A DNA stretch of 64,000 nt from positions 47,244,001 to 47,308,000 of the forward strand of contig OX597831.1 in assembly GCA_951406725.2 (NCBI GenBank), in the 5' to 3' direction. The notes under the pieces are model-generated. The model saw only the letters and a program-made list of their open reading frames with translations, was not told where the DNA came from and searched no databases. Of the stretch, positions 29,622 through 56,751 are shown piece by piece. This DNA comes from Octopus vulgaris (Eukaryota). A program made the translations under genes and the position numbers. Each line of letters starts with the position of its first letter. The first letter of the stretch is position 1.

Positions 29622-29778
29622 ATTACAAAAACTCAAACATAAGGTTTCTGTTAATAAATGGAATTTCATCAAGACAAAATGTAACTACTTACATTATCAA
29701 GCCGTTGCTGATTTTATCGATCAGTCTATACAAGAAATTGATGGTGAACCCCCACCTGCTATACCACACTTAGATTTT
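29622..29778 (+). CDS. FER: Fer/Fes FX exon, 157 nt, phase 2-0 (LQKLKHK...DGEPPPAIPHLDF)
   Basis: attcag| and TTT|gtaagt. Ends with the EPPP motif found after the FX region in FER/FES. Confidence 0.88.
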
Positions 29779-31048: not shown

Positions 31049-31088
<40 letters not shown>

Positions 31089-31144
31089 ATATACATACAT
31101 ACACACACACACACACACATATATATACATACACACGTATATAT

Positions 31145-31220
<76 letters not shown>
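30797..31220. repeat. Long TA/TG/CA microsatellite tract
   Basis: Directly visible; source of the YIYI-type pseudo-ORFs. Confidence 0.95.
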
Positions 31221-31222
<2 letters not shown>

Positions 31223-31616: not shown

Positions 31617-31748
31617 GATCCATCATGTTTGCAAGTTGGCTCTGGGGCTACATTGCTTAAAAAATTTAATTCCATGCCTAATACATTAAGAAGGTTTGCT
31701 AGTCGAAGTACTTTGTTCAATATGAGTACAATAGATTACTCAGCAGAG
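31617..31748 (+). CDS. Candidate linker exon L1, 132 nt, phase 0-0 (DPSCLQVGSGATLLKKFNSMPNTLRRFASRSTLFNMSTIDYSAE)
   Basis: atttatttccag| and GAG|gtaggt. Open in the gene frame, with TGCATG 26 nt downstream. Confidence 0.65.
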
Positions 31749-32998
31749 GTAGGTACTGGAAATGGAGGCAACTTGCATGATATCCTCAATTAGAATTACG
31801 TTCTGAGAAGCCTGCCTCTTCTAATATCTTTCATCTGCCAAGCGAATGGTAGGGAATCTCAATTTGAAATATTAACTGCTTACCGTTAATGGATTGTAGG
31901 TCAAAGCCAAAATGTGATTCTAACTGAATTTTTGAATAATTTTTAAATAAACTTTGCTTGAAGTTGATCGTGCAGAGGAAATGAAAAAAAAATAATAATA
32001 ATAATAAATAAAAACTTGACAAAATATACCTTTGAATGTTTTGGTGTTATGTAACCAACAATATTAACTGCAAGTAACTACAAGCTGAGAATTAAACGAA
32101 TGGACTTGTTAAAATCAATTAATATCAATGATTTCGATGTGTTAACAGCTTTACTGGAGTTCTGTAACAAGTTGAACACTATAACTCTCTGTTGTTTCAT
32201 TTCTTATCTGTTTCTTCTGTGTGAAGACAGATCGCTAATAGTAACAACCTTTTTAAAAAGCAGCTGCTCAGACTACATATAGTTGTGCTGTCTTTTACAT
32301 AGCCTCTAGCTGCTTTGCCTGAAATCCTGTTATGAGATGGACTCTCAATGAGGTTAAATTACTACTACTGATGTTATTTTCTGTTATTTGTTATTAGTGC
32401 TGCTAACTAACATCTTCATTCTTTATTTTTCTCTTGGGATTATTATTTTTTTTTTTTTAGTTACTTTTCAAAACTTTTTTGAAATACATACATTAACATG
32501 TGAGTCTTTAAATAATTAAGAAATCAGATTATCAGCAGACAGGTATATTTCAAAAGTGGAAGAATATTTTAGCAAAAAGCCCTTTAGCTACATCTGATAC
32601 GACTCTAACAAAGCATTGTAACCAGGCAGATCTGGCTGTGTCTTGTGGGTAAAAAGTTCACTTCTCAACCAATTTTCAACCCTGTGGATCTGTGTTTGAT
32701 TCCATTGTGCAGCATCTTAGGCAAATACGTTCTGTTGTAGTCTCAGATTGGCCACTGCCTTGTGGGTGAAATTTGGAGAAACTATGGAAGCCCATTTATA
32801 GACACACATGTTAATTGAAATGGAATGCATGACAAAATTACTATATTGGTTGCAGCTCTTGATAGTATCCATGTTAAACTCCTGCTGCTACTTGACCCAG
32901 TAAGGTTCACTGCAACCATTATAAGGGTGTTATATGATATGAATAGGACATCTAATATGAGAGAAACCCATGAGGTATGAAGTTGGTATTTCTTGTAG

Positions 32999-33038
<40 letters not shown>

Positions 33039-33149
33039 CAGCACACCTGCTTCTTCCCTCATTCTTAATCACTCTCTCTCCCTCTCCTCTTGCTTTTCCT
33101 TATGGCTGGTTATTCTAACCTTTCGTCATCCGACACAAGATTACCTCCT

Positions 33150-33590
33150 CCAATGCCCCTGCCGCTATAGCAAAACACCTGTTTCTGCTTCCCTGTACTT
33201 TCTGTCAGACTCTTATCTTTCATCATTTGATACAAGATCCCCTCCTCAAATGCCCCTGCCCCTCTCAAAATTCCTTGTCTTGCAAGTTACTTGGTGACCC
33301 TGCCAGTGCTGGTACCTCATAAAAAGCATCCAGTCCACACTGTTAAGTGCTTGGCATTTGGAAGGGCCTCTAGCTGTAAAAGCCATGCCAAAACTGATCT
33401 TGCCTGTGCTGGTGCCACGTAAAAATCATTCAGTCTTCTCTGCAGAGTGGTTGGTGTTAGGACATCCAGCTGTAAAAGCCATGCCAAAACAGACACAGTG
33501 GCCTGGCATAGTCTTCTATCAGGTTGACTCCTGTCAAACTGTCCAACCCATACCTGCACAGTAGATGGATATTAAATGATGATGATGATG
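33150..33590 (+). mobile_element. RTE 3'-end-derived element (family D) with a duplicated module
   Basis: gtgctggt...taaaaa...gctgtaaaagccatgccaaaac occurs twice; (GAT)n tail. Confidence 0.75.
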
Positions 33591-33832
33591 GGTAATTCTT
33601 CACTGTTTGCTTCACTGAATGGTAATATTATCTGGAGTGTATATTCGCAATAATTATAACAGTAGAGAATGTGGAAACTGGTACATCCTCAAAATATATT
33701 TCCTTTTATTTTACAATGTCATACAGCATTTTGAGGATGTACCAGTCTCCATATTTTCTATCATTATAATTATTGCTGATATACACTCCAGATAGTATAA
33801 CGATTCAGTGAAGCAAATATGGAATTACCCAT
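33588..33832. repeat. Inverted repeat, about 105-bp arms
   Basis: atgggtaattc...catcctcaaaat / attttgaggatg...gaattacccat. Confidence 0.88.
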
Positions 33833-34639
33833 TGGAAGAATTTACAGTGTGACAACTCATAATAGTCATAGATGTTTAATACTAATCAGTGCAGTTAGCC
33901 GTAATCTGGAACATGACAGAGAGCTACCACAGTATCCGCTCAGATAATATATCCCTCTAAACTCACACAAATGTATGCATAGTTTTATATACCTTGTGGT
34001 ATTTGTTCTGCTTGAGTTACACAAAAGCTCCCATGTCACACATGCTGTCATAAATACAGTGAATGTATGTTAGAAAACTGTAACCAATACTGCTATTGTT
34101 CACATATTGTGATAGAAATATAAATAAATAACCTTAGCCATCATTGCTTGGGCTTGTAAACAATCAATCAAAACTATACTAGTGCCATTTGTATGTCCAA
34201 CATTCTGGATAGGAAAACGTGAGATTGAAAACAGTTTATTTATTTATTTATTTATTTATTTATTCGATGAGTCACTACTGTTTAATCTTTATTGTAGCCA
34301 TACAGTGCTAAAATTTAGAATTTCACATTTGTGATTCTCTTTTTTTAACCCTTTTATCGCTATATCCCGGTTGAAATTCTATATATTGAATAAAATATGA
34401 AAATATTTTGAGGAACATAGATTAAATGACTCTATAGAAACTAATGTGCAACCAAAGAATAGATGTAAATTCTTGGTTTCTCTTGCATATACAGAAGCAG
34501 ATGGCATTTTACTGAGTTTTTTTTTTTCCAGAATTTTCTTGTCTTTAATTTTTATTTTCTATCTTTTTTCTCTCTTTCTCTCTCCCTTTTAGCAGCTCAA
34601 TTTTTAAGGAATTACTGGAATGGTGCATCAATTTATTTA

Positions 34640-34800
34640 TCGTATTTTAACATGTATAAGGAACCCTTTTTGTCAAAAATTAGATTTAAAAAATATAGGA
34701 GTTTCTCATACATGGATAGTATTATAATCCCTTACAAAACCTTTTTTCCAAATTTTAAAACCCTATAATTAGGGGGTTCCTTATACATGTTAAAATATGG
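34640..34800. mobile_element. Tc1/mariner-pogo-like MITE with TA TSD
   Basis: ta-tcgtattttaacatgtataaggaaccc ... gggttccttatacatgttaaaatatgg-ta. Confidence 0.8.
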
Positions 34801-35921
34801 TAATTTTTATTCTTTCTGCCACAGAAAATTTCATGCTATGACCGTTTTCTCAAAAGAAAGCATTGTCTGCAAGTGTGCATGGGAATCATTTTTTAGATGA
34901 AGGTTTTGTCTCTTCCGAAATACTGCACGAAGCTGCAGTTGATTCACTACAACAATATTACTGCTGCATTTGATAATATTTATTTTTTTTCAGATATAAT
35001 CTCTATTTTGCATTATTAGGTCATCAAGTGTGTATCTGATGTACATAGCATGTATTGCGTAGTTTTATAATGTTTGTACTAATACATTAACAAGTACGTG
35101 TGTGTGTGTGAGTGTTGTATGGATGCAGCATGGCCACATAGTTCAAATGTTTGCTTCATAATCAAGTGCCTTTATTACCAAAAAAAAAAAAAGGAGAATG
35201 CCCTGAGTTTTCATCTACTTAGAAATGTAGGGATATTAAGAGAGAGAGGTGCAATTCTTAATAGTACTAATTTAGCTAGCTTTGTGTTCCATTGTGTGTT
35301 TGTATATGTGTGTGTACATGTGTGTGCATGCACACACACACACATAAGATCTGTGGGTAAAAAGTCCCTGACTTGAAAACAAGTCAGAGTTCGCAACATA
35401 TCCATCCATAAAATCCAACTTCAAAATCAATTCTCATCCAAATCATACTTGGATGGAAAAATGAATGTTAAAAATATTAAATGAGCAAAAAAAAAAACCC
35501 CAGGTCACACACATAAACAAACACTCAAAGAACATAGAACAACTTCAAAGTGCTCAATACACATTTGTGTTACTGGGTGTAGATTCTATCATATGGATGA
35601 CTAAACCATGGAAACCAAATCAAAATGTCTTGCTAGTTTTTAGTTGTTCCGTAGTATCATTTAAATATTCCTAAATTTTAGTTAAAATGAGTGACTAGTA
35701 GTGCAATGTTTTTTGTTGGGTGCTTTTTTTTAAATTTTGGTTTTTTATATAATTTATTCAGAAAAGGAATAGCAACATCCATGACCTTTTTCCTGGGTTT
35801 TTACTTCCCTGCCCACCTCTGTTGTTATGATAATGGTCTTAGCTCTTCAGAACTAACTCCCTGAACTGGCCCATCGATTTCTCTTCCAATTACCACCCCT
35901 GCTATGTCTTATTCTCTAGAC

Positions 35922-36247
35922 CAGTGGTTCTCAACAGGTGTTCATATGACCATATGGGTCTCAACTGGGGTCCATAAGATTGTTGGTATCCTTACAACAA
36001 AATAGTAAATTGGGGATCACAATAGTATTTTAAGGACCCCTGCAAAAAATTTTGCTTTAGATGTAGGCATTGGTGTGTTGCAAGAAACAACTAGGTTTCT
36101 TTCTCTAACATTTTACATAGTTCAACTTAGATGAGTTAATTCGGGAAAAACAAAAGAAAAATTTTTGACTGGCTATGAGGTTCCACCAGAATAAAATAGT
36201 AATCAAAGGGGTCCTTAGATAAAATAAAAAATGGTTGAGAACCCTTG
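35922..36247. mobile_element. hAT (Charlie-like) MITE
   Basis: cagtggttctcaac ... gttgagaacccttg. 8-bp TSD ctctagac/ctgtagac. Confidence 0.85.
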
Positions 36248-36806
36248 CTGTAGACCCTGCACTGTACATTTTTTGAAACTCCTTTTTTAATGGCTTAGTC
36301 AGTGGAAAAAGAGCAGTGTTGATGATCCTGGTGGGGCCAAAGAAGGACATTATCCTTAGACTGGAGACCTACCCTGTTTACTTGCAACAATCATTCATGG
36401 AGTTAAAGCAGGTGACAGATGAAGTCTATTGTCCTAAAACAAGAATGGTCCTACTGACAGGCCTCCACATACTTTATGGTTGTAAAATTTGCCCTACAAA
36501 ACTGTGGTTGCTTTGATGCTATGCTAGAAGGCATTTGTCCAAATTGTGGCATCATGAGATTGAATTCAAACCCATGCACTTGTGGAGCAAACTTCTTAAC
36601 TCCGCGGCAGTGTTTGCACTTGATAATATCTGCCTGGATTGCAATATACTCTGCCCTCATTTTCCTTGTGGGTGATGATTTACAGAAGTTCAAATTGAAA
36701 CATAATCACATCAGTCTCTAGAAGACTTAATATTATTATTTAAATATTTTTAGTGTAAGAAATCTTCTTCTTCTTCTTCATCATCATCATAATAATAATA
36801 AATTGT

Positions 36807-37020
36807 AAGGTGGTAAGCTGGCAGAATCATTAGCACTCTGGGGAAAATGCTTAGCAGTATTTCATCTGTCCTTATGTTGTGCATTTAAATTCCACTGAGG
36901 TTGACTTTGCCTTTCATCCTTTCGGGGGTCAATAAAATAAGTACCAGTTGAACACTGGGGTCAATGTAAATGACTTACCCCTCCCCCAAAAATTACTGGC
37001 CTTGTGCTAAAATTTCAAAC

Positions 37021-37071
<51 letters not shown>

Positions 37072-37882
37072 CATTATTATTTTAATTATTGAGTGAGAGA
37101 GCAGTGCATGCCATCAAAGTGACACTGGGGTAAAATATACAAAGCCCAGTATACCCATCATGACTACCCATCTGATAAGGGTACATCAGGCACATGCATC
37201 ACAGCCAAATATGTGTAACATGGTAATCTCATATCAAGATAAACAGTGCATGACCTTGCAGGTGGGGCCCAGTTAGAATTTTCTTCTGGTCGAGTAACCC
37301 ATCCTGCTCAAGAGGTCCCTGAATAAGGGTTGTTTAAGGATGTTGAACGAAACACCCATGTTTCCAGAAGTGAATTATTCAAACCTCTAAGAATTCCTTC
37401 CAGCACACGGCTATGATGCTCCCCAACTACTTCTGCTCGTGATCAAAGATGCACATATCACCAGCCACTAAGGGGCATGTTCAACTGGTCATGGTCAAAC
37501 AACTGAGAAACAAATCTGTGGTATTGATCAGAATATTTGCTACAGCCCATCTTTTATACCAAGACAAAACAATGTACATGATAACATTTACAATCAGTTA
37601 AGATCAGCAGCCATGAGAGCCACTGCCTGGTAATGCATCAGGGCATTTATTATTATTATAAAAATTGTAAGGTTGCAAGCTGGCAGTCTCATTAGCAGGC
37701 CAGGTAAAATACTTAGTGGCATACATCCAATTGTACATTCTGAGTTCCAATTTTGCCAGGGTTGATTTTGCCTTTCATCTTTCTGGGGTCAATAAAATAT
37801 GTACCGGTTGAGTTCTGGGTCAATGTAATCAACTTACCACCTCCCCCGAAATTGCTGGCCTTGTGCCAAAATTTGAAGCCAT
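36807..37882 (+). mobile_element. Two SINE family A copies (36807-37022 and 37668-37882) bracketing the ATT-embedded element
   Basis: Two family cores; aaattgtaa at three junctions. Confidence 0.8.
37091..37647 (-). mobile_element. Non-coding interspersed element embedded in (ATT)n; end shared with 10735-10850
   Basis: gagagagcagtgcatgccatcaaagtgacactggggta... matches the 10.7 kb copy. ATT repeats on both sides. Confidence 0.7.
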
Positions 37883-38871
37883 TATTATTTTAAATTGTAA
37901 TAGGAGTATAGGGGATTGATCGAATTATAAGAATAGTGGACAACATACCTTACTGTATTCATTCCGTCTCCTTTCTGGGTTCAGATTCTGCTGAGGTCAA
38001 CTTCAACTTTAATTCTCTTGGGGTCAGTAAAATATAATACCAATGAAATATTGGGGTAGATTTCATCAACAGGTCCCCTCTTCACAGTTTTTGCCCATGG
38101 ACTTTTGCCTATGTTAGAAATAAATATTAATTGCAAAAGATTATGGATGTTAAAAGTAGGAGAATGCCAGATCAAATTTTTTGTGGTGGTTACTTGTCTT
38201 TTTATTACATGATTTCATGTCTCAATGATGCTGACAATATTCTTTTTTTTTTTTTTTGTCCCTAGGGTAGCGATAAATAATATCAATCAAGTACCGAGAG
38301 AAATAATATTAATAATAATTATTATCATTGTTATTGTTAAGGTGGCAAGCTGGCAGAATTGTTAGCACGCCGGACAAAATGCTGCTAAGCATTTCATCTG
38401 TCTTTACATTCTGAGTTCAAATGCTACCAAGGTCGACTTTGCCTTTCATCCTTTTACAGTTGATAAAAAAGTACCAGTTGAGCACTAGGGATCAATGTGC
38501 TAGGCTTACTCCCTCCCCTGAAATCCTGGCCTTGTGCCAAAATTTGAGACCAATATTTTTATTAGTATCGTTAACAATTTCTTTAATATATTCACTGATT
38601 GATATTTTTTATTTGTCACAATAATTATTTTAATTTAGACTCTTTTTCTAACCTTCAGAGATCATGAAATCCTTTCCATTTATATTTTTTGTTTTTGCAT
38701 TATGATTAATCATGCTTTTAACTTAACGCAGCCTTCCAGGGAAAAAAAAGAAAGAAAAGCCACATACTATTTTTAGTATGTTGAATGCTTATTCAAAAAT
38801 CAAGTGAGAAAGTCTATTCTATAGATTCCTTTTTAAATGAAAGCTTAATTTCGCTGCTCTCACATGTTCAG

Positions 38872-39075
38872 GATGGCACTTCAATGGTATCAGCAAGTTC
38901 TTCACAAACAAAAGCCAGATGGAATATAACAAATATTTTCAAAAGTCTTGGTGGTAACGTGATTTCCACACCATCTCCAGACAACACTGAGAGCAAACAA
39001 AACCAAAACCAAAACCAGAAACAGAACTATGAAGAACAGTTTGATGTTAAGGGTGTTGAAGAATACAATGGAGAG
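38872..39075 (+). CDS. Candidate linker exon L2, 204 nt, phase 0-0 (DGTSMVSASSSQTKARWNITNIFKS...GVEEYNGE)
   Basis: gttcag| and GAG|gtgaga. 68 open codons with a (QN) low-complexity stretch. Confidence 0.75.
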
Positions 39076-39574
39076 GTGAGATTTCTATTTAAAACCAAAC
39101 CTTTTAAAACTAGCTTTTACTGTCTGTCACATCACAATTGTTTCCATTTTGGTTGTTTCTTCTATTTATTTCAATTTAATTATTTTAAAATTATTTCTTT
39201 ATATATTAGTTATTCTCTCATTAATGTCAAGTTCACGAGGATCCAGTATTTTAGCCTTTGTTTTCGTTTTTGATTGGAGTCTTTTTATTTCATTTACACT
39301 GTTATAAAGATGTCTTGGGAAAGCACTTAAATATTTCAATCACTTTTGGGGAAAAAAATTTTTTAAGTCTCCAGTTTTGGATCCATTTGAGAATGTAATG
39401 ATTTCTTTTACATATAAAGGGTTTCTTTTTTTTCTGTTCTAAACGTGCATGAAACTATAATGAGTCTATCTGAAAACATATATTTGGTTTAAAAAATTAA
39501 TTATGATTAATTATCTGTATTTAAGAACAGTGCTTTAAGCAAATGTCTTGACTGAGTCAAATAAAGATGCAGTC

Positions 39575-41348
39575 TTTCAGAGGTATCAAGCTGTTGGACC
39601 AGGTGATGAAGGTTACGAAGAGGGTCATAGCCCAACTAATTAGAGAGAGAGTTAGTTTAGATGAGATGCAGTTTGGGTTTGTGCCAGGGAAAAGTACTAC
39701 TGATGCTATATTCCTGGTAAGGCAGCTGCAGGAGAAATACCTAGCCAAAGATAAGCCCCTGTACCTGGCTTTTGTTGACATGGAGAAAGCCTTTGACAGG
39801 GTCCCCCGATCCCTTATCTGGTGGGCAATGAGGAAACTAGGGATAGATGAATGGTTAGTGAGAGCTGTGCGGGCCATGTATAAGTAGGAAGGTAGACAGT
39901 AATCAGTAGGAAGGTAGACAAATCACAAACACCTTCAGGTAGATGGCCCTGCTCGATCTGTAGAAAAGGTGTAGGTAGAAACTCTATAAGATGCACCAAG
40001 TGTAAGCTATGGACACATAAGAGATGCAGCAATGTCAAAGGAAGGCTAACTAGGAAGATGGTTTTTGTATGTGGCAGATGCTCAGGAACAATAAACACTG
40101 AAAATGCTCTGAGACCAACTTCCGTCACTTTCCAGGGAGAAAAACTAGAAATAGTTGATAGTTTCCGTTACCTAGGTGACCAAGTCAGCAGCGGGGGCGG
40201 GTGTGCTGAAAGTGTAACTGCTAGAGTAAGAATAGCTTGGGCAAAGTTCAGAGAGCTCTTACCTCTGCTGGTGACAAAAGGCCTCTCGCACAGAGTGAAA
40301 GGCAGACTGTATGATGCGTGTGTACGAACAGCCATGCTACATGGCAGTGAAACATGGGCCGTGACTGCTGAGGATATGCGTAAGCTCGCTAGAAATGAAG
40401 CCAGTATGCTCTGATGGATGTGTAATGCCGGTACTCACACTCGGCAGAGTGTAAGTACCTTGAGAGAAAAGCTGGACCTAAGAAGCATCAGTTGTGGTGT
40501 GCAAGAGAGACGTTTGCGCTGGTATGGTCATGTGGCGAGAATGGATGAAGATAGTTGTGTGAAAAAGTGCCACACCCTAGCAGTTGAGGGAACCTGTGGA
40601 AGAGGCAGACCCAGGAAAACCTGGGACGAGGTGGTGAAGCACGACCTTCGAACTTTAGGTCTCACTGAGGAAATGACTAGAGACCGAGACCTCTGGAAGT
40701 GTGCTGTGCGCGAGAAGACCCGGCAGGACAAGTGAGTCCATAACCCGTGGCCTTCTACATGGGATGGAGCCGGCCTACGTATGCATACCTTCCCTTCTTG
40801 GGACACAAAACTCTACTTGTGAAGACGTGTTGAGGCAAGTGAGGATCAGAATCGAAATCGATCAATGGAAATTGCGGATGTGCTACCAGTGCCGGTGGCA
40901 TGTCAAAACTCTGCTTGTGAAGACCCGTTGAGGCAAGTGAGGATCAGAATCGAAATCGATCAATGGAAATCGATCAATGGAAATTGCAGATGTGTTACCT
41001 GTGCTGGTGGCATGTAAGAGAACTTTCCGTTTCGCGACCGTTGCCAGCACCGCCCCGTTTCGTGTCCGTTGCCAGCCTCGCCTGGCCCTCGTGCCGGTGG
41101 CACATAAAAAGCACCATCCGTTCGTGGCCGTTTGCCAGCTCTGTCTGGCACCAGTGCGGGTGGCACGTAAAAAGCACCCACTACACTCACGGAGTGGTTG
41201 GCGTTAGGAAGGGCATCCAGCCGTAGAAACACTGCCAGATTTGACTGGGCCTGATGAAGCCTTCTGGCTTCACAGACCCCAGTAGAACCGTCCAACCCAT
41301 GCTAGCATGGAAAACGGACGCTAAACGATGATGATGATGATGATGATG
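39575..41348 (+). mobile_element. 5'-truncated, internally deleted RTE-clade LINE (RT fragments, PHD-like finger, 3' UTR, (GAT)n tail)
   Basis: RGIKLL...QFGF...STTDAIF...FVDMEKAFDRV; FRYLG; RLRWYGHVARM; RGRPRKTW. In-frame TGA at 40412-40414 where MLRW is expected (CGA>TGA). Ends in GAT repeats. No TSD found. Confidence 0.92.
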
Positions 41349-42799
41349 TGACACCTGTTATTCTTGTTTAGCTATGATTGAATAGAACTATAATCAAAGG
41401 CATTCCAAACATGACCATTTTGTCTTTCTAGATGTTTCCAGGACTACATAATTTAATTATCCTTTCCAGAATTTAATTTGGGGCAGATATGGCTACTATT
41501 TATAATAGGTTGACTATGTACAAACTTCCTTGTTGTTGGCTCATAAGGCGTGTTTGGAGTTCATCATTGTTATCATCAAATTATATCATAACAAGGAACT
41601 TTGCATTGTACAAGTCTATTGCCAAAGAATGTAGAAAAGTTGTTTAAAAAAAAGTTTGAAAAGAAAAATGGTGATGGTGGTGGTGGTGGTGGTGGTTGCC
41701 GCCGTCGTCGTCATGGTTGTGGTGGTAGTCATTGTAGTAGTTGTTTCCTGCTAGTATCAGAGTACAATTTATGGGGGGGGGAACCGTTTAAAAATGCCCT
41801 CATCCCATGTTAAGCTATTTGACATTATATGCTTTTTCTGGTGGAAAGAGGATTGGTAGAATCAACTGAATGAGAGATAAAATGCCCTCTGGCATTTGGA
41901 TGCATAGCTTTACGTTCTGAGTTCAAACTCTGTTGAGGTCAACTTTACCTTTCATCTTTCAGAGTAGGGAAACAGGTTTGATAAAATAAATACCCGTTGA
42001 GGGCTGATGTCAATGTAATCATCTTTACTTGTTCCTCACAGTTTAGGCCTTGTAATTTTGTTTGTAACTAATATTAGATACTTTGGAACAAATAAATGTA
42101 GTATCATTAATATATTCCGGCTTTATCCCATTCAAATATGGAATAAACTGGTTTGCTGTAAGGAAGAGGAATTATCTAGCATTTTAAGCAATGCTCTTCA
42201 TTTATTATAACCTCTCCCTCACCTACCCCCTGATGAGGTGGGTACTGTCTTGTGGCCAAAAATCTATAGGTTGTATTAATTTAATCAACATCCTTAGGTC
42301 ATTTTGCATATTGTGTCTCTATTTAAAGTATGGTCAGAAGATATGTCTGTTAATTGAATAGACAAAGCTATATACAAACTCACTTTCTATATAAACCTTC
42401 TCTTTTATTTAGATATTCATTATGTGGACATCATACATTCGATGGTGAATGGATAGTTTTTGATTATATGATTGTAGCCACTTGTAGTCCAAGGAAGACT
42501 GTCCTACAATTTCTTTCTAAAGTCCTGCACAAATAATTTGTTTACAGTGATCAAAATTTTGTGTGATATAAGCTCACTTCCCCCATCAAATTAACATGGC
42601 CTGAACAGGTGTATGGTGTACCACATGTCAGATGTTGAAGTGATTTTAGAGTGGCATGAGATGTAGTGCTTTGCTCAAGAACACAATGCACCACATAGTT
42701 CAGGAGTTGAAACCACAGTCTCATGATTGTACCCTCACTTTTGACTTTTATGTATAGTGAATAGCTTTATAATAAAATAATAATGAAATTATTGTATAC

Positions 42800-43092
42800 A
42801 GTGCTCAGGTGCACCACAACTTGTCAAAAAGTGCGTATAAAGTATATGCAGTAATGTACAAATGCCTGGAAAGCGAACAGTGTATAAGTCAGATACATGC
42901 TTGCGTGTGTATGGAGGGGAGAAAATCAGGTGTAGTGTTGGCGAATCTCAGGAAGCATGGAAGTTTTGAAGGATGCAGTGCTCCGACAACTAACAACTGA
43001 TACCGGCAGTTTGTTCCATACTTCAGCAACTCTTAGCGTGAAAAAATGTTTCTGAAAGTCATGGGAGCTGTGCTGTTTTCTGACTTTGTAAT
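42800..43092 (-). mobile_element. CR1-type LINE 3' end
   Basis: Minus strand reads FFTLRVAEVWNKLPVSVVSCRSTASFKTSM, followed by a 3' UTR. Confidence 0.8.
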
Positions 43093-44137
43093 CTGACTTT
43101 AGATAATATCTTTCCAGTTACTGTCCACATAATACCTCTTATAAGCTGTATCACAAACCAACACTGAAGGATGTATTTGTTCACTTTAAATAAATTGAAG
43201 CCAAATCCCCCTCAAATCACACCATTACTTAAGCTCTTCTCTTTGCTCTTTATGGAGCATAGGCTTTCTATGACTTTTCCCTACTATTCTCACTTCTGAG
43301 TTGTCAGGGCCACTCACTCAGTGTGGGTGAGGGTCACCATATTTTCCATGAGGGAAGGCCTTTTTCTCCCAGGTCTTGTTGGTTTTGAATTGTAATCAAT
43401 GGTTCTGTAATCTGGCTTTTTTGTGTAGGTGGGGTTGATGACTTCATTGCAAACCTTTTTTGGGGTGGGGGGTGGGGAAGGTGATCCTTATAAGTCTGGC
43501 CTCTATTCTTTGATTTGTCTAGCATAGAAAGCCCTACTAGGAGCTTGTGATCTGTTGGCATAGCTCTCAGAGTGACTGAGGAACATAAGCCACCACACTG
43601 CAACAAGAACTAAACCTTGTGGTGGCAAATCATATCATACTGTCTTTAAAAAAAAAAAAAGTGGCAAGGGGGCACAACACATTTGATAATGTAATCCTAG
43701 ATATACTATGTCTCAGAAAAAAAACAACTAGATGGTCATGACTGGAATGCCTTTGGTCTTCAGATTTTACAATTAGGGTTGACCTATTAAACAGAAACAG
43801 TCTGTATCAAATTGACATTTGTAAGCTGTGTATAATAATTTTCCATCTCTTACTAGTGTCTGTTAATGTTTTAGTCATTGACTGTATCTATCTATCCAGT
43901 CAATGTCTGTGAGTCTTCCCCATCCAATTGATGGCATGAAGACTGTGGTTATCAGGAGAATTCCTGTCAGTTGAAGAAGGAATTCGAGTTGCAGTCATTT
44001 TGGAACATACTTATTCATTAGTACCAAGATCTGCCAACATATGGTTTGGTGATCATCTCTTTAAGTATCTTCATAACTCTGGTTTTTGTTTTTTTAATCC
44101 TAAATACTATATTATAAATACATACACACACACACAC

Positions 44138-44168
<31 letters not shown>

Positions 44169-45588
44169 CTGTCTATGTAAATCTACATGCATTCATATGT
44201 GTAAAAAGATGCATAAACAATTCTGTATCCCATTTTTTGTGTTCCTTGCAAAGTCATTCCCTTTTTATATTCCCATTTTGCTCAGATGCAACTATTTAAG
44301 AATACTTATTTCACTGAGTTAACAAGAGTTGAAACAAACACGCATTAAACACACACATATTTATGCTCACACACACAGACACACACACACATACATACAT
44401 ACATACATGCATATGAAGGCTCTGTTTTCTAACTGCACATGTTTAGTGGTGAAAATGATGAAGAGAACCACTCATTAAGCTCATATCACAGACATATTAG
44501 AATACCACCTCAACCTAAATGTTGTAACTTATGAATCAGCTGTAGGATTGGGTTTTAAATTACACTGCACACAAAGTATTGAATGACCTGACAAGCATTA
44601 CCAATGCAAGGAGGGAGTTGGAGAAGGCACATAATTAAATTTACAGATTTAAATCTATAAAAAAAAAAAATGTCAGAGACACTGAACATTAATTGCTATT
44701 TTTTGTTTGTTTTTATTTTTATTCACATTCTTCTTTTATCTTATCTTCTTCTTCACTATTACATTGTTATATTGCATCATCTGTCGTTTGACTCAAGAAT
44801 GATGCCTCTGGGTGGTTTATTGTTGTTATTATTGTTATTTTTGCTTCGCTGCCAATGTGGTGTTTTTCTTTTTTCTTTTTCTTTTTTTTGTACTACCTCA
44901 GATTTAGCAACTGGGTTGGTTTTTTTTTTTTTTTTTTTTTTTTTCAGGTCACACACATAGTCTAAGTGTGGAGTCATATTGTTTGTTTAGTTAGAAAGAA
45001 CAATTTTGGCATTTGATATAGTTTTACCCCCTTTTTTTCCCCTCCCCATCTCTCATTCTCTCCATCTCATCTGAATGAGATTTCCCTAGTATTTCCTAAT
45101 TTTAAGACAAAAATGATGAGAGATGAAAAATAAAATTTAAAAAATTTTTTTATATTTTGTGGGAAAATGTCTATGAGCCATTGTTAGAACAGAAGTGTTG
45201 ACTTGATAAATGGAAGGGATTAAGAAAAATATTATATTATGGAAGGTTTTTTTTTTTGTTTCTTTGTTTTATTGGATTAGGGTTAGATTTCACTCTGATG
45301 ATTAAAATTTGATTTTTGTTCCTCTTTGTTTCAAAGGATTTTGTTATTTTACCTTTCCCTCTCACTCATTAATCGAGTTAATTTGATAAACAGTTAAGTC
45401 TTTTCAAATCTTACGTGAAATGTATGGTGGAAATTTTAGAGCGAGTGATAGAAATTCCTTGTAAGCTTACAGCTTTGTTGGAAGTGTTCACTGTAAAGTC
45501 TCGTTAATAAATAAACAAGGTGTCATATATATGATACTTTGTGGAATTAATGTTGTTCTTTCTCTCTCTTTTAATTCATGATTCTCAT

Positions 45589-45622
<34 letters not shown>

Positions 45623-46375
45623 GTGCTCTCTGTGTTGAAATCTTGACCTTCTCAACAACTGCACGTGTGATTGATTGTTGCAGCATGCATATAAACTAGC
45701 ATGGAATCCGTTTCCGAAGCATGTGTTCACTTCAGCATTGTGCTTGCATGTTTTCCTTCAAATTCTAATTGAAAATAATAATCTTAATACATTCTTTTCT
45801 CTTTGATTCATTTGAATTTTTTTCTTCTTTTTCTTTTAAATTTCTATAGGCAGTTTAGCTGCAATTTTTTTTTTTTTTTTCTGCAAAAACAAATTTCGGT
45901 TTTAATATTTGCCTAAATCTTTATTTCTTACTGGCAAATTTGTATTCTTACTTCACTTTAATTTCTTTTTTTATTTTCTTTTCTATATCTTGTATTCATT
46001 CATATGCTTTCTTTATAATCTCTTTCTCTTTCTCTCTGAAATTCTTTCCTTGAATCTTTTCTTTTGCCACATTCACACATACACAGACATGTACATAACA
46101 AACACAAGATTAATACATAACTCACACATACACATTCTTCATCTTAAGAAATTGTAATTGAAATACATCTCATAGTGCTGCACCAGAAATCTTTCCCCCA
46201 TTAGTTTTGTTAGATCCTTAATATCACAATGTGTGTCTTTGCCAACAACATCAATGCAGAAGTTTCCAAAATTTAACATTTGATATAGCGTGTTGTTAAG
46301 TATGATAGTAGTGGCCAGCAAAGCCTACCCTGTTTTGAGCAACAATAGTAGAGGTAGGAATAATGTATCCGAGTG

Positions 46376-46748
46376 CCTGTGTGGTAAGTAGCTTGCTTAC
46401 CAACCACATGGTTCTGGGTTCAGTCCCACTGTGTGGCACCTTGGGCAAGTGTCTTCCACTATAGCCTGGGGCCTACCAAAGCCTTGTGAGTGGATTTGGT
46501 TGACAGAAACTGAAAGAAGCCCATCGTATATGGGTATGTGTGTGTGTGTTTGTCCCCCCCAACATTGCTTGACAACCGATGCTGGTGTGTTTATGTCCCT
46601 GTAACTTAGCGGTTCGGCAAAAGAGACCGATAGAATAAGTACTAGGCATACAAAGAATAAGTCCTGGGGTCGATTTGCTCGACTAAAGGCGGTACTCAGC
46701 ATGGTCGCAGTCAAATGACTGAAACAAGTAAAAGAGTAAAAGAGTAAA
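46376..46748 (+). mobile_element. SINE family B
   Basis: Full copy ending in aaaagagt repeats. Confidence 0.88.
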
Positions 46749-46759
46749 ATCTCTCTGGT

Positions 46760-47135
46760 CTTGTGCTTATGCCATGAGATGTTTTTAAGCCATCATGAGA
46801 AGCATTGTATATGTATCTTGAAAGTGATCAGGAAGCTTCCTACACATGTTGGGAAGAAAGCAAATCTTGCTCACTTCAGAATACATATATTACCATTAGA
46901 TGGTTTGAAATTTGTTACAGGCTCTTCAGGTTGCTCCCCTGTGTATAAGGAAATCTTTCTAACTGTCAGCAACATAGGAGTCAAAGTATTTGAAAGCACT
47001 AACTTCTCTGAACTGTGTGCCTTCATTGCAACAAATTGGCTGGTGGCTTTCATCTTCATTGATGGTCACGTATTCAATTTTCTTTATATTGAGAGACAGA
47101 CTGACTTTGGTCACAGTATTCTCAAGGGAGGCTAG
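46760..47135 (-). mobile_element. Degraded LINE RT C-terminal fragment
   Basis: Minus-strand VSLSLNIKKI and AFKYFDSYV, resembling GLxINxxKT and FxYLGS. Confidence 0.55.
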
Positions 47136-48747
47136 CATGTCTTACACATATGTAACTTCCTTGCACTTCTGTCATCAGGTTAACAAATGACCTGTTGTAA
47201 CTTGACAAGCACTTGCCACTCTGATTGATCTTGATCACTTCTCAGCTGGTAGTAAATGGGTTGTTTTATGTTATTAGCTCATTGTTTATGTGATCTTCTA
47301 CACCAACAAATCCTCGGGGTACTACCAAGTATGATGATTCATTAAGGGCTATTGAGAGGCTGATGGTAAATATTGTTAAAATCTAATGTAAATATCAGAT
47401 TTGTGGGTCATCCAGAGCATATCTTACAATGTTTCCAAATACCATAGTGTTTTATATTATAACATATCTTAATGATGTAATAAAAATTCCCTCTGATCAC
47501 TGTGGTAGTGACAATGACAATGATGATGATGATAGTTTTGATGTGCATATGAAGCTAAAATGATGATGATAATGCTGCTGCTAGTTTAGTGTTATATATA
47601 ATAACATACTTTAGTGTTTATAATAGAAACTCCCTCTATTACAATGGTGGTAATGTTTATGTACATAAGATACTGTACATAAGGTACTCTACAAATATAA
47701 ACTGTAAAGTAAATGTTTAAAATTTTTTTATACCTAGCTTAGTCAGAGGAGGAAGGGCTGTGCTCATGGCCGTTTTTCAGGACCACTAGGACTGGTGGGT
47801 TGGAAGAAAATTGTTTCTCTTCAGACCAGAGATCTAGCCCCAAATGCTTCCTACAGAATGCACTCTGTCAATGGCACTCAACGACCAAATGGTAGCATTA
47901 TACTGGGTGACAGATTAAGTCTAACACATAAGAACATGAACAGTCTCTTAAACAAGCTCACATAATCTCTGTCTTAGAATAAAACTTTTAAACTTCTGAA
48001 ACTAATTGTAAAAGCATAAATACATTTTATAAGCTATTGCTTCAGTATTTGCTAGAGCAGAAAAAGAATTAGTTTAGCCTCATGAAAGAAATAATAATAA
48101 TCTTATAGTTACAGAGAATAAAATAACTTCCTAATGACACAGGGGAATCACAATTCTCAGTACCAGATGCAGGGGTCTCAGGTGGGTGTTCATTCCTTAA
48201 ATAGATCAAATTGATTTCTGCATAAACCTGTAGCAGCTTATAAAAGCAGTAGCGGTGTTTATCTGTGATATATCCCGAATGTCAGTAAGGTGTGAAAATA
48301 GGTGGTAGAAGCCATATGGAAGGTATTTATTAGAATATATTAAAAAAAAATCTATTGTTACTTGAGAACATTATGTAGACCATGAGAAATAATATTTCCA
48401 AATATCTATCCTGTTTTAGAATAGCTTTGAAATTGGTAGAGAGCCAGTACATTTATGGCATCTTGTTCCAATACCGCAGTGTTTTGAATTTACATATTGT
48501 CTGGGTTAATTACTTTTTATTATTTCCAGAGCTGTTTATAAAATGTGTACTAATAATACTAGCAATAAGCTAGTGTTAATTCAATTGAATAAGTCTCCAC
48601 CAACCCTACAAAATTTGCCCTATAATAAAAAGAAATGATTCTAGAAATGTACAATGAGCTTGTGCTATTTTCTTGGTGGCAATTGGAAAACTGAAGCAAC
48701 AATAAAAATTGATTATTCTGTATTTTATATACAGGCTTAAGTATGAA

Positions 48748-49141
48748 TGTGTGGTAAGAAACTTGCTTACTAACCGCATGGTTCCAGGTTCAGTCCCGAT
48801 GTGTGACACCTTGGGCAAGAGTCTTCTACTATAGCCTTGGGCTGACCAGCACCTTGTGAATGGATATGGTACACAGAAACTGAAAGAAGACTATATACAT
48901 GTGTGTATCTTTGTGTTGCAGTTTGCTCCCCCCACTACCACCACCACTGCTTGATAACTGATGTTGTTGTGTTGACATCCCTGTAACTAAGCAGTTCAGC
49001 AAAAAAGACTGATAAAATAAGTACCAGGCTTTAAAAAAAAAAAGCACTGGAGTTAATTCATTCAACTAAAACTTCTTCAAGGTAATGCCCCAGCATGGCC
49101 ACAGGCTAATGACTGAAGCAAGTTAAAGATAAAAGATAAAA
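48748..49141 (+). mobile_element. SINE family B
   Basis: Homologous to 46376-46748. Confidence 0.85.
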
Positions 49142-49504
49142 ATATTATCTTTGCAAATTTGAACAAGTTCATACACAATGGAGAGACAAGGGTCTTCGTT
49201 TCAAGCAAAGCCTTTTGTTGCAGAAAGAATTATTTGAAACGTTTATGGTAACATTGAAAATAGAATTTTTCTTTGTTCCTCTCCAATGGACCCTCTCTCT
49301 GCAACATTCAAACTAATCCATATTTGTGAATGATTTTCACCAACAAGGACCACTATTAGTTTTCTAAAACTCTGAGTTGTATAATAAATTATATACTAAC
49401 TTCAATATCTTTTGACAGTTTCTCAAAGTGGTCTGAAGGAGAAAATAAGCAGTGCATTCATTTATCATGTATGGTCATAGAACTGGTTCTAAAATAAATA
49501 ATGG

Positions 49505-49900
49505 CATCAAATTTTGGCACAAGGGTAGCAATTTTAGTGTAGGGTTAAGTTGATTACATTGACCCCAGTGCTCAACTGGTACTTATTTTATCAACCCTGA
49601 AAGGATGAAAAACCAAGTCAACCTAGGCGCTTAGTGGTATTTCGTCTATCGTTACGTCCTGAGTTCAAATTCCGCCGAGGTCGACTTTGCCTTTCATCCT
49701 TTCTGGGTCGATAAATTAAGTACCAGTTACGCACTGGGGTCGATGTAATCGACTTAATCCCTTTGTCCTCGTTTGTCCCCTCTATGTTTAGCTCCTTGTG
49801 GGCAATAAAGAAATAAGAATTTGAACTCAGAATATAAAGAGCCAAGAGCCAGAATAAATGCTACTGTGTGCCAGCCATTCTACTAATTTTCTGCCTTACT
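49505..49900. mobile_element. + strand SINE A nested within a - strand SINE A
   Basis: The minus copy is interrupted at about 49628 and resumes at about 49817 (gaatttgaactcagaa). Confidence 0.8.
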
Positions 49901-50261
49901 TTTAAAATAGGGATGACAGAACCAGAATAGATTTCATGGAATAATTGAATAGCTCTTAGAGAATTTATGAAAACAACTACAAATTGATCTAACTGCTTGA
50001 TAATCTGACCATTATGAACCATACTTTGATTTAGCTACAAAAGTGGAAGGAAGAGGTTCAGGCAGTATTTCCTAAGCTTGTCTGAAATCCTTCCATCTAC
50101 TTTGGTAACTGAATCAAAATATGGTTTTTCTTAGTCACATTATTACTCAGTTTGTAGTTCTTTTCATAAATTTAAGAGCTATTCAGTTATTGAGTATCTT
50201 CATTGATGAACTAGAACTAGAAAAATAAATGTTAAAATAAACTATTAAAGGCTGGGATAAA

Positions 50262-50467
50262 TAATTATGTGATTTATATATTTTAATAATTAATTATGGG
50301 ATTTATATATTTTAATAATTAATTATGGGATTTATATATTTTAATAATTAATTATGGGATTTATATATTTTAATAATTAATTATGGGATTTATATATTTT
50401 AATAATTAATTATGGGATTTATATATTTTAATAATTAATTATGGGATTTATATATTTTAGTAATTAA
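50262..50467. repeat. 29-bp minisatellite, about 7 near-perfect copies
   Basis: Unit taattaattatgggatttatatattttaa. Confidence 0.95.
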
Positions 50468-51894
50468 AGTCACCATCATCATCATCACTATCAGTGACAT
50501 CATCATTTTTATATCCACTCTTCTGTGCTGTCATGGAATGGACAGGACATTTTCAGGCAATGGTTTTACAGTTGGCCATTCTTCCTGACAACAACCTTTT
50601 CAGTCATCTCTTACAGTATGCAAGGGTATGGTGTACCTTATCTACACAAAGTGTAAATTATAATAACAACTTGTGGGGTGTGGTCACTAGTTTTAGTGTT
50701 TTCAGTGTAATTAACAAAACATTGTTCTCACACAAATATTGGAAACTATTTACCAAGAGTAAATGTCAGTTCCTTGAACAACAAAAAATAGACCACACTA
50801 ATCTAGAGAATGTTATTTCCGTAAGATTTTAGTTCATGATGCTATTAATATAGCGATCTACAGATTATGGTTGTTTAGTTATGAAAAAAAAGCTTATTGG
50901 TGTCAATATTATTCTCCTGATGAGTTTCAGTACAAACGTGAGTGAATGTGTGTGTGTATGTGTGATTAGTGGTGGAGTTGTTGATTTAATAACCTTCAGA
51001 TTCTCCCACATAAAACTGCAGCAGTAGTAAGTCTAAGAATTCTTTGCTTTGCATTAAAATATCTCCCAATGATTCAGGTTTTTCTCTGGGTGTGTCATTT
51101 TGGTAAAAGTTCAAGTTTGTATCAACAGACACATCTAGACATAGGGAATTTAATGGAACCTGTATAGAGATATTTCTTTGTGTTTATGTATATCTATATA
51201 TATATATATATATATATGCATTTTAAGTTTCCTAGCTTTAATTTATCACCACCTCTTTTAAAATTGGAACCATTTTCGTTTTTGCAGATAAATTCATGAG
51301 GAAAAGTAGTAATTTCTTCATAGAGTAATTATCATAATTATTTTTATTGTTATCAATGGATTTTTTTATTTTCTATTTCTTCTTACCTGAATTCCATTAC
51401 AAAATGTGATTGATGCAACAACTTCATTCATAACTTGGAAGTATTTCAAAGTTGTTACAAAATTTACTGTAGCTGAAAGCTCTTGTTCAGAGCTTCCACT
51501 CAACCATGAAATGATGGGTGTATATGTATACAGTCACATACATGCAGACATACACACATATCATAGTAAATGTATGTGTAGGTGTATATGTGTATACACT
51601 CTCTTACTCCCCAGATACACATATAAATGAAGATGTAGACATACTATTATCAGAGATATGGTTAGATTGAATAATTGGTGTCTGTGGAGAGAACAATAAA
51701 ATAGCTAGGTTTAGGTGATGGATATAAAGATAATCTTAGCCATTTGATAAATAGGTATTGATAATATAAATACCAGAGTAATGGAGTCAATATGATTTAA
51801 GGTTGTATAACTACTGCCCAATGACTGAAAATAGTAAAAGAACAAAAACTGAGTGGTAGAAAGAGCTGAACAATGTACTAAGAGTGTTTCAGTC

Positions 51895-52260
51895 ATCTAT
51901 GTTCCTCCCAATAATGGTTGTGTCTCATATTAATTACAGAATTCATGCGGTACTGTTCCAGCCAGAGAATACCTTCTCTATTTAGGGTGTTCAGTATTTC
52001 AGGCCAAATTTCTCCCTTTTCACATTTGAGCACTTTAATTACCCATATGACATCAGCCTCTGTGAAGTTAGCCTTTGTCCCTAGATGCACCTCATGTTTA
52101 CCAGATTTTATTGTGGCCATATTTACACTTAGGAGTAATTATTCTTCTGAGCAGTTCTGAGGTTGTTGGGGTTTACACCCTTAGCCAGTTGTAAAGAAGA
52201 TATATTTGAGATTCTCAGCCATAGGCTTTTGTTTCTTGAAGCCTAGAAATATCAGTATTA
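51895..52260 (-). mobile_element. Fragment of the same degraded RTE-type LINE family
   Basis: Shares 'agagaataccttctctatttag' and 'cacatttgagcactttaatt' with 58664-58725. Confidence 0.65.
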
Positions 52261-53049
52261 CTCACTTAAAATCGGTTTGTTTACATCCCCATAAATTAGA
52301 GGTTCAGCAAAAGAGACTGATAGAGTAAGTGCCAGACTTAAGAAAAGAAGTACTGGGGTTGATTTATTCAATTGACCCTTCAAGGCATTGCCTCAGCATG
52401 GCCGCAGTCCCATGTCTGAAACAAGTAAATGATATAAGAGTTGCTTGTCATTCTTTCCATCAAAAATGCGATGAATGAGAGATTGACCAATTGGCAAGCT
52501 TTAACTAACAGCGGTGTTGTTTACTTGGGATAAAATAAAAAGAGAAAAACCATGTGAAGTAATGTCATTTCATTATTTCCCTTCTCAAAATAAAGGACTT
52601 TGGTTTTAGTCTAAAGAAAGCAATACTTTAAGGATGTTATAATGTAGTGAATTAAGTGAGAAACCATTGAAGCATTAAGTACTTTTTTAAAAGAAAACAG
52701 TATTATGGAGATTAAGATTGACTTGTCTCCTTTACTGCTCTTAATTTATTGATTCTAAAGGTATGAATGGAAGAGGTTTTGGTGCCACTGATATTCTTTG
52801 CAAATTCATAAGTCCTTTGGATTTTTATTAAAAGTAGTTAACAGCTAACATTTCAATAGTTAACTTAGAGTTTAATCTTTGCTTTATCTGAAAAACAATT
52901 TTTAGAGCCTCCCTACCAACATACATTACTCTTTCTGTCAGAGGCTTTCATAAAGCTGTAAAAAGCTAATTAACCTGGTAAAAATCATTGGAATTCATAA
53001 ACAATTTTGAATTCAATGGGAAAATATTTTATTTATTTATTTGTGTGAA

Positions 53050-53055
<6 letters not shown>

Positions 53056-53106
<51 letters not shown>
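53056..53106. repeat. (GA)n microsatellite
   Basis: Directly visible. Confidence 0.95.
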
Positions 53107-53110
<4 letters not shown>

Positions 53111-53564
53111 AGGGTGTGAATGGATGTGACTATCTAATGACAAGACTAATGTCTTCATACTAATCTAACTTTGAAGAAGTAAAGAATTTATGTAGAGGTA
53201 CACGTTGGCACTACACACCAAACATAACATGAATAACAGTCATTTGGATGTAAAATAGCATAAACATTAATAGCTCTTCCAATCAAACTTCATTCAAATA
53301 TCTGGACAACACAATTCCCTCTTGTTCCTCCTTTTGCCTTTGTTCCTTGGCTTTCCCCTTTTTCGCTTCTCTTCCTATTTTCCCTTTTCTTTTTCCTTTC
53401 CTATGGTTCTTCCCTACCTACCTGCCCTCCTTCCCTCCTTTCTTATTGTCCCTTCTTCCCTCGTTTCTGCTCCTCTACTTTAAACTGTATTTCCTACTAT
53501 TTTCAAGCTACATGGTTTAAGTATGCATGAAGACAATGATCTGAGGCTTGTTTTTCTTGTCTAG

Positions 53565-53762
53565 GACAGCTCCTCTTCAGTAGCATCCCTCTCTTCTTAT
53601 CTGAGAAGGTCACACGTCAATCTTTCCAAGAACACCAACAGCAGTTGGTTGAAAACATTGCATACTACTACCGGCCGAGGTCTGGCTGAGAGAAACAAGT
53701 GGGAGTGTTACGAGGAATCAAGCGTGCGGAAAATAAGCCAGGATTTGGGCAATTTTAATGAG
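53565..53762 (+). CDS. Candidate linker exon L3, 198 nt, phase 0-0 (DSSSSVASLSSYLRRSH...KISQDLGNFNE)
   Basis: tttttcttgtctag| and GAG|gtgaga. 66 open codons, visibly more GC-rich than the flanks. Not in the ORF track. Confidence 0.7.
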
Positions 53763-56553: not shown

Positions 56554-56751
56554 ACTGCACCAGTCAGCCAAAGATTAGAAGATGAAGAATGGTTTCATGG
56601 AGTTCTTCCTCGAGAAGAAGTACAGCGTCTTTTAGTCACTGATGGGGATTTCTTAGTTCGTGAAAGTAAGAACAAGAAAACAAATGAAGTTTTGTATGTA
56701 CTTTCTGTTTACTGGAATGGTCATAGACATTTCATTATTCAAACAAAAGAG
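56554..56751 (+). CDS. FER: SH2 domain exon, 198 nt, phase 0-0 ([38 protein letters not shown]...[10 protein letters not shown])
   Basis: tctgtccag| and GAG|gtatgt. Canonical WFHG and FLVRES SH2 motifs. Not in the ORF track. Confidence 0.96.

What the first reader, a model, noticed from the sequence alone, without database searches (positions are those of the whole stretch)
31617..53762. Cluster of three symmetric D...E exons in the FX-SH2 linker of Fer: candidate cassette or mutually exclusive exon system
Seen: the 26.8-kb gap between the phase-0 donor at 29778 and the phase-0 SH2 acceptor at 56554 contains three stop-free, AG/GT-bounded segments of 132, 204 and 198 nt. All are multiples of 3, all begin with GAY (Asp) and all end GAG|gt. 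L2 and L3 share Ser-rich starts (DGTSMVSASSS / DSSSSVASLSS) and ends (YNGE|gtgaga / FNE|gtgaga). Knowledge (recalled): vertebrate FER/FES have a short linker with a D-x-x-S-x-x-S element after EPPP, and L1's LKKFNSM resembles FER LSKFESI. Inference: an ancestral linker exon duplicated and diverged. Any combination keeps frame, so isoforms could vary spacing and phosphosites between the membrane-binding F-BAR and the SH2-kinase unit. All three together would add 178 aa.
Basis: partly seen in the sequence, partly recalled or inferred. Interest (0 to 1): 0.75.

Follow-up and report, generated by a model that had tools for sequence, protein, structure and literature searches.

The report
Octopus Fer kinase optional linker exons
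The octopus Fer kinase gene has three real in-frame linker exons that are spliced in mixed combinations rather than either-or, have counterparts in cuttlefish-like relatives, and likely change the length and phosphorylation sites of the tether between its membrane-binding and kinase halves; this is an ordinary kind of alternative splicing already listed in automated annotations.

Summary
L1 (31617-31748), L2 (38872-39075) and L3 (53565-53762) are real phase-0 exons of octopus Fer. They are combinatorial cassettes, not a mutually exclusive set. Public protein records show 6 of 8 combinations, including L1+L2+L3, and RefSeq already lists them as isoforms. Contigs of four probable RNA runs show U-L2, L2-L3, L2-SH2 and L3-SH2 joints in 4 of 4 runs, and L1-L2 in 1 of 4. 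L2 is the default exon, L3 a common cassette, and L1 was seen least. All three have counterparts in a distant, cuttlefish-like lineage (L1 34/44 identical), which also mixes them. L2 matches the single linker of other lophotrochozoan Fer proteins, which carries a Tyr-Glu dipeptide in 38 of 48 records. L3 is a weakly supported duplicate of L2. L1 shows no kinship to either, so a three-way duplication is not supported. None of 23 records lacks both L2 and L3. Rbfox hexamers sit beside L1 and L3 only. Function (spacing, phosphosites) is inferred, not shown. Verdict: a real, conserved, ordinary type of cassette cluster with a modestly interesting history.

The parts
29622..29778 (+). Upstream constitutive exon U (end of FX region, proline motif), phase 2 in, phase 0 out
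   Evidence: U-L2 contigs in 4 of 4 runs
31617..31748 (+). L1 cassette exon, 44 aa, two tandem L-x-[KR]-x-x-S motifs; no detectable kinship to L2/L3
   Evidence: L1-L2 contig in 1 of 4 runs; 34/44 identical in distant cephalopod
31774..31779 (+). TGCATG (Rbfox-type hexamer) 26 nt downstream of the L1 donor; predicted to promote inclusion
   Evidence: function inferred
38872..39075 (+). L2 exon, 68 aa, counterpart of the single lophotrochozoan linker (Ser-rich, basic-hydrophobic stretch, Tyr-Glu motif); default exon, skipped in some records
   Evidence: records without L2
53524..53529 (+). TGCATG hexamer 41 nt upstream of the L3 acceptor; predicted to favour skipping
   Evidence: function inferred
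53565..53762 (+). L3 cassette exon, 66 aa, carries a second Tyr-Glu motif; likely diverged duplicate of L2
   Evidence: (included and skipped in 4 of 4 runs)
56554..56751 (+). First SH2 exon, constitutive, phase 0-0

Best explanation
L1, L2 and L3 are three frame-preserving exons of octopus Fer that are spliced in mixed combinations, with L2 as the default, L3 as a frequent cassette and L1 seen least, and they likely change the length and phosphorylation sites of the predicted-disordered tether between the F-BAR/FX unit and the SH2-kinase unit. L2 descends from the single ancestral lophotrochozoan linker (shown by profile match). L3 likely arose by tandem duplication of that exon before octopods and decapodiforms split, and adds a second Tyr-Glu site. 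L1 is a separately gained, strongly conserved exon that would add two basophilic Ser-kinase sites. Inclusion is likely cell-type regulated, with Rbfox predicted to promote L1 and disfavour L3. The insert ranges from 66 to 178 residues in the records seen.
For: Records: 23 of 23 full-linker cephalopod records carry L2 and/or L3, in 6 combinations (L1L2L3 3, L2L3 5, L1L2 4, L1L3 4, L2 5, L3 2). RNA-type contigs from 4 studies: U-L2, L2-L3 and L2-SH2 in 4 of 4 and L1-L2 in 1 of 4; L3-SH2 in 4 of 4. Conservation: three unnamed records identical outside the linker (57% F-BAR, 87% SH2-kinase identity to the window) give L2, L1+L2 and L1+L3. A named Sepia pharaonis model holds an L3 piece (z 13 against octopus L3). 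A profile of 46 non-cephalopod linkers scores the four L2 pieces above all but 0-1 of 500 shuffles. Tyr-Glu occurs in 38 of 48 such linkers against 3.9 shuffled. AF2 gives pLDDT <50 for residues 408-591. L2 differs at 1 of 204 nt in a related organism whose intron contig differs at 89 of 2154 (P about 0.002). TGCATG lies within 200 nt of 2 of 26 exon flanks, those of L1 and L3.
Against: L2-L3 kinship is weak. Global pairwise z is 1.1-5.3 and local alignment is mostly not significant, and none of the 3 L3 pieces scores against the non-cephalopod profile (78-324 of 500 shuffles reach them). The Tyr-Glu site meets only the +1 of the three Fes kinase preferences (PMC2572732) and is absent from the lamprey, crinoid, locust and spider linkers printed. 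One Mercenaria isoform skips the whole block. Most junction contigs have 27-30 letters on the short side, under the tool's 31-letter bridging rule. The runs are only guessed to be RNA, and contig depth is a poor measure of level. The U-L1 joint was not observed in reads, and the one L1-L2 contig has 245 unexplained letters 5' of L1. The hexamer count (2) equals chance overall (1.9 expected) and was noticed before it was counted. Low pLDDT may reflect thin alignment at L1 and L3.
Confidence: 0.75

Rival explanations
1. Mutually exclusive exon cluster (Dscam-like): one of the three exons is chosen per transcript.
For: All three are phase 0-0 and of similar size; L2 and L3 are weakly alike. In the distant cephalopod records L2 and L3 were never seen together (0 of 6). 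In run X10 no L1-L2 contig was seen although L3 has a second, unidentified predecessor.
Against: L2-L3 joints in 4 of 4 runs and L1-L2 in 1 of 4. 16 of 23 records carry two or three of the exons. Introns of 7.1 and 14.5 kb rule out steric exclusion, and 3n lengths rule out a frame-based trap.
Confidence: 0.04
2. L1 is in part the entry exon of an internally started, F-BAR-less transcript, working like vertebrate FerT, rather than only a cassette.
For: In run X1 the L1-L2 contig has 245 letters 5' of L1, while the contig from the N-terminal exons into L2 runs 1536 nt unbranched, so L1's 5' neighbour there is probably not U. FerT comes from an intronic promoter of vertebrate fer (PMC10049441). 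X10 has an unexplained predecessor of L3.
Against: X1 shows intron-exon contigs at depth 4-7 elsewhere, so an unspliced upstream intron explains the contig. Unnamed assembled records P0018 and P0132 join U to L1 directly. A search with L1 found only 2 F-BAR-side records among 3 candidates (weak evidence).
Confidence: 0.1
3. The exons are tolerated padding in a disordered linker; the isoforms are functionally equivalent.
For: L2 and L3 diverge fast in sequence and length; the region is predicted disordered; other animals also vary this linker.
Against: L1 is 34/44 identical across lineages whose F-BAR regions are 57% identical; L2 is under purifying selection; the Tyr-Glu dipeptide persists in 38 of 48 divergent linkers.
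Confidence: 0.1

Closest known systems
RefSeq/UniProt Octopus Fer isoforms X1-X5 (e.g. XP_014772075-78, XP_029655360-63)
   Same: Exactly these exons and five of the six combinations, plus an L2-only UniRef model.
   Different: Automated models without level, tissue or evolutionary information; no L2-only O. sinensis record was retrieved although contigs show that path.
Fes/Fer family non-receptor tyrosine kinases (F-BAR, FX, SH2, kinase)
   Same: Domain order and sequence.
   Different: Linker is built from up to three optional exons, 66-178 residues.
Linker-variant Fer isoforms in other animals (Mercenaria X1/X3/X4, Prorops X1/X2, Lineus X1/X3, lamprey X1/X2)
   Same: Isoform differences of 6-77 residues fall in the same FX-SH2 linker.
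   Different: Those show one or two optional pieces and no second copy of the linker module in the records seen.
Human FER Tyr402 autophosphorylation site
   Same: A FER tyrosine reported as autophosphorylated (PMC9098222, PMC10276154 passages); its place in the linker and an acidic +1 are recalled, from no call.
   Different: Positional homology to the mollusc Tyr-Glu was not shown; one search did not verify the sequence context.
Vertebrate FerT
   Same: Isoform variation arising upstream of the SH2-kinase unit of the same gene.
   Different: FerT uses an intronic promoter and lacks the F-BAR (PMC10049441); here the full-length protein is kept.
Tandem-duplicate mutually exclusive exons (Dscam1 type; recalled)
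   Same: Neighbouring same-phase exons, two of them likely duplicates.
   Different: Co-inclusion is common; similarity is far lower.

Membership tests
Cassette (skipped) exon cluster | Inclusion and skipping joints both exist | tested here: met
   L3: L2-L3, L3-SH2 and L2-SH2 in 4 of 4 runs. L1: U-L2 in 4 of 4, L1-L2 in 1 of 4; U-L1 only in protein records. L2 skipping only in records and by subtraction in X10.
Cassette (skipped) exon cluster | Canonical splice sites and frame preserved | tested here: met
Cassette (skipped) exon cluster | Tissue- or stage-regulated inclusion | not testable with these tools
   Runs are coded contigs with no tissue label and no raw reads.
Mutually exclusive exons | Exons never spliced to each other | tested here: not met
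   L2-L3 in 4 of 4 runs, L1-L2 in 1 of 4; 16 of 23 records hold two or three exons.
Mutually exclusive exons | Exclusion mechanism (short intron, frame trap, docking-selector pairing) | tested here: inconclusive
   Short intron and frame trap are excluded coordinates; the inverted-repeat list showed 25 of 807 pairs, mostly microsatellite, none informative.
Tandem exon duplication | Detectable homology between L2 and L3 | tested here: inconclusive
   L3 profile scores the 4 L2 pieces with 0, 19, 1 and 12 of 500 shuffles reaching them; L2 profile scores the 3 L3 pieces with 10, 4 and 96 of 500; same phase, similar length, shared motif order.
Tandem exon duplication | Detectable homology of L1 to L2 or L3 | tested here: not met
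   Pairwise global z -1.4 to 2.3; cross-profile tests with a score gave 23-359 of 500 shuffles, and one pair gave no score.
Fes/Fer kinase family | F-BAR/FCH, SH2 and tyrosine kinase domains in order | tested here: met
Fes-type optimal tyrosine substrate site | Aliphatic -1, acidic +1, hydrophobic +3 (PMC2572732) | tested here: not met
   L2 and L3 sites have acidic +1 only.
Rbfox-regulated exon | UGCAUG near the exon, conserved, with position-dependent effect | tested here: inconclusive
   Hexamers at L1 +26 and L3 -41; conservation and effect not testable; positional rule from PMC3967051 passages, mouse data.

The most novel reading that the evidence does not exclude
Coleoid cephalopods turned the single Fer linker into a splice-coded switchboard: a duplicated phosphotyrosine module (L2/L3, at least one always kept) plus a new, highly conserved Ser-kinase module (L1), with Rbfox driving L1 in and L3 out in neurons or muscle, so that cell types set Fer's tether length and its Tyr versus Ser control by splicing.
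Probability: 0.2. Interest if true: 0.55.

Novelty: new member of a known kind. Interest (0 to 1): 0.33.

Why it matters
Fes/Fer activation depends on coupling between the membrane-binding N-terminal unit and the SH2-kinase unit (PMC11311543 figure legend; PMC2572732), and the linker between them is not in the top solved structures, which begin at the SH2 domain. A natural, conserved series of linker variants gives a ready test of how tether length and linker phosphorylation affect the kinase. It also points to a conserved Tyr-Glu site in lophotrochozoan Fer. It is a useful example of cephalopod splicing diversity, not a new kind of system.

Tried and rejected
Pfam on the three exons: no family at cut-off; one sub-threshold DUF6794 hit on L3, rejected. 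Repeat origin: L1 and L3 with flanks each gave 1 match in the own genome (the tool warns this does not prove rarity), and no window self-match touches any of the three exons; no RNA holder listed on record; the four runs laid are guessed RNA. Read laying left 29779-38599 and 39531-50499 uncovered, so U-L1, L1-L3, U-L3, U-SH2 and L1-SH2 were not examined directly. In one search the joint and loose-end tables were cut (55 and 1097 rows hidden) by repeats. A search with L1 alone missed the distant L1 that one search found, showing its low sensitivity. The representative search returned lamprey and two lizard Fes/Fer-like records but no usable gnathostome FER linker. Inverted-repeat scan for docking sites was uninformative. 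Two papers recalled on Drosophila Fer isoforms and Src-Fer phosphorylation were not held; nothing is taken from them. Paper searches found no description of cephalopod Fer linker splicing; the library lacks most subscription papers. Earlier-findings look-ups returned nothing. In one search three distant pieces were cut one residue short; corrected from then on. No complex prediction was run because the tool cannot model phosphorylated residues.
Full report
1. Observation. Thirteen exons of the window, L1-L3 among them, translate to residues 70-783 of the O. sinensis Fer isoform X1 record with no mismatch, so this is octopus Fer. A loose pseudo-exon scan of the gap found 5 sense candidates, of which the 3 D..E ones are L1-L3; the reverse strand gave 5 and 0. 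The D..E look is partly splice consensus: among the 10 other exons 3 start GA and 4 end AG, and the SH2 exon also ends GAG|gt.

2. Already annotated. A search with L2 returned 4 octopod Fer records, and their clusters held 10 more. Their linkers are L1+L2+L3, L2+L3, L1+L2, L1+L3 or L2; L3-only records came (read). These are automated models, so whole combinations may be assembled from single junctions.

3. Junction evidence. Four of the 24 listed runs, from four studies and all guessed to be RNA, were laid as contigs. By exact loose-end letters, U-L2, L2-L3 and L2-SH2 occur in 4 of 4 runs and L1-L2 in 1 of 4; the L3-SH2 joint with GT..AG ends occurs in 4 of 4. In X4 and X8 one unbranched contig of 1702 and 1618 nt runs through U and all of L2, so L2 behaves as the default there. 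Contig depths put the L3 share after L2 at roughly 0.45-0.66; the tool warns depth is a poor measure, so this only says both paths are substantial. In X10 L3-SH2 (663.5) exceeds L2-L3 (350.4), so some transcripts likely enter L3 from elsewhere. Most junction contigs have 27-30 letters on the short side, below the tool's bridging rule; I accept them because the letters match the exon ends exactly in independent studies. U-L1 and all joints from L1 or U to L3 or SH2 were outside the stretches laid.

4. Conservation. and the cluster look-up gave six unnamed assembled proteins 57% (F-BAR) and 87-88% (SH2-kinase) identical to the window. Over the SH2-kinase start, the three compared are 94-99% identical to a named Sepia pharaonis record, so they are cuttlefish- or squid-like. 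Three are identical outside the linker and read L2, L1+L2 and L1+L3. L1 is 34/44 identical to octopus, L2 aligns at z about 10 and L3 at z 6.9. The Sepia model begins inside L3 (z 13 against octopus L3). Across 23 full-linker cephalopod records, 6 of 8 combinations occur; L1-only and no-insert occur in 0 of 23. The first search was seeded with L2 and only cluster representatives and some members were visible, so this rule is suggestive only. Between the window and O. bimaculoides X1 the 178-residue insert differs at one residue.

5. Origin. Of 48 non-cephalopod lophotrochozoan Fer records (rows P0020-P0067), 46 have a 55-144-residue linker with a Ser-rich start and a basic-hydrophobic stretch. 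The best basic amphipathic 11-mer beat its shuffle mean in 41 of 46. A Tyr-Glu dipeptide occurs in 38 of 48, against 3.9 in shuffles (maximum 10 of 1000 rounds); in 31 it is the only tyrosine. These records are related, so they are not independent. A profile of the 46 (2 short ones dropped) recognises all 4 L2 pieces (0-1 of 500 shuffles) but none of the 3 L3 pieces, nor octopus L1 (61 of 500; distant L1 4 of 500). L2 and L3 profiles cross-score weakly in 6 of 7 tests (0-19 of 500; one at 96). L3 keeps a tyrosine at the same place, followed by Glu in octopods, Asp in P0018 and Met in Sepia. So L2 is the ancestral linker, L3 a likely old duplicate, and L1 unrelated by these tests.

6. How it likely works. 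Shown: exon choice changes the insert between 66 and 178 residues in the records seen. Predicted: the insert is disordered (pLDDT <50 at 408-591). Inferred: L2 and L3 each supply a tyrosine phosphosite, and L1 supplies two L-x-[KR]-x-x-S motifs, both kept in the distant lineage, that fit basophilic Ser kinases (recalled consensus). Human FER has an autophosphorylated Tyr402 (PMC9098222 and PMC10276154, passages), but its homology to the mollusc site is not shown. Fes prefers aliphatic -1, acidic +1 and hydrophobic +3, and is stabilised by SH2 ligand binding (PMC2572732, passages); the octopus sites meet only +1, so another kinase may write them. For regulation, TGCATG occurs within 200 nt of only 2 of 26 exon flanks, 26 nt after L1 and 41 nt before L3. 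In mouse cells upstream Rbfox2 binding correlates weakly with repression and downstream binding with activation (PMC3967051, passages). That predicts L1 up and L3 down together.

7. Comparison and novelty. Optional pieces in this linker also appear in clam, wasp, nemertean and lamprey records (6 of the 17 pairs aligned differ in this linker, counting one Ciona pair and two clam pairs, and setting aside one cross-species insect pair). FerT is a different route, by intronic promoter (PMC10049441, passages). Nine paper searches (listings only) found no description of the cephalopod cluster, in a library that lacks most subscription papers; supplements were not read. PMC11311543 was seen as passages. 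The feature is a conserved cassette cluster of a known kind, present in automated annotation. What is added here is the junction check, the decapodiform conservation, the L2/L3/L1 history and the Tyr-Glu motif. Interest 0.33.

Noticed in passing
window 31372-31616: The only L1-L2 contig (run X1, 407 nt) has 245 letters 5' of L1 that are probably not exon U; retained intron or an alternative first exon.
   Followed up: partly
window 53565: In run X10 L3 has a second, unidentified upstream partner of about the same depth as L2.
   Followed up: no
window 38600-38758: Intronic contig of depth 35.5 in run X10 that ends at a genomic A-run just upstream of L2; internal priming, nearby repeat or a real transcript end.
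   Followed up: no
window 29297-29611: 163-bp tandem duplication, 96% identical, ending 10 nt before the acceptor of exon U and copying part of its pyrimidine tract; could be an assembly artefact or a cryptic acceptor.
   Followed up: no
window 39540-41350: GC-rich stretch that looks like a decayed LINE reverse-transcriptase fragment followed by a SINE-like repeat; family names recalled, no family search run.
   Followed up: no
window 57172-57408: Short interspersed repeat that draws very large contig depth in all four runs.
   Followed up: no
window 50617-50820: A further 204-nt stop-free AG..GT segment with a weak donor; low depth and no joint among those shown; probably a pseudo-exon.
   Followed up: partly
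window 38989-39032: Hexamer repeat inside L2 coding a Gln-Asn run that is shorter in Argonauta.
   Followed up: no
window 53762-56561: Minor joint in X10 (depth 26.8) landing 7 nt inside the SH2 exon at a non-AG site; probably an assembly or sequencing error.
   Followed up: no
protein records: O. sinensis RefSeq lists Fer isoform sets on two contigs (179 kb and 768 kb), while L1 and L3 are single-copy in this genome; likely a duplicated assembly in that record.
   Followed up: partly
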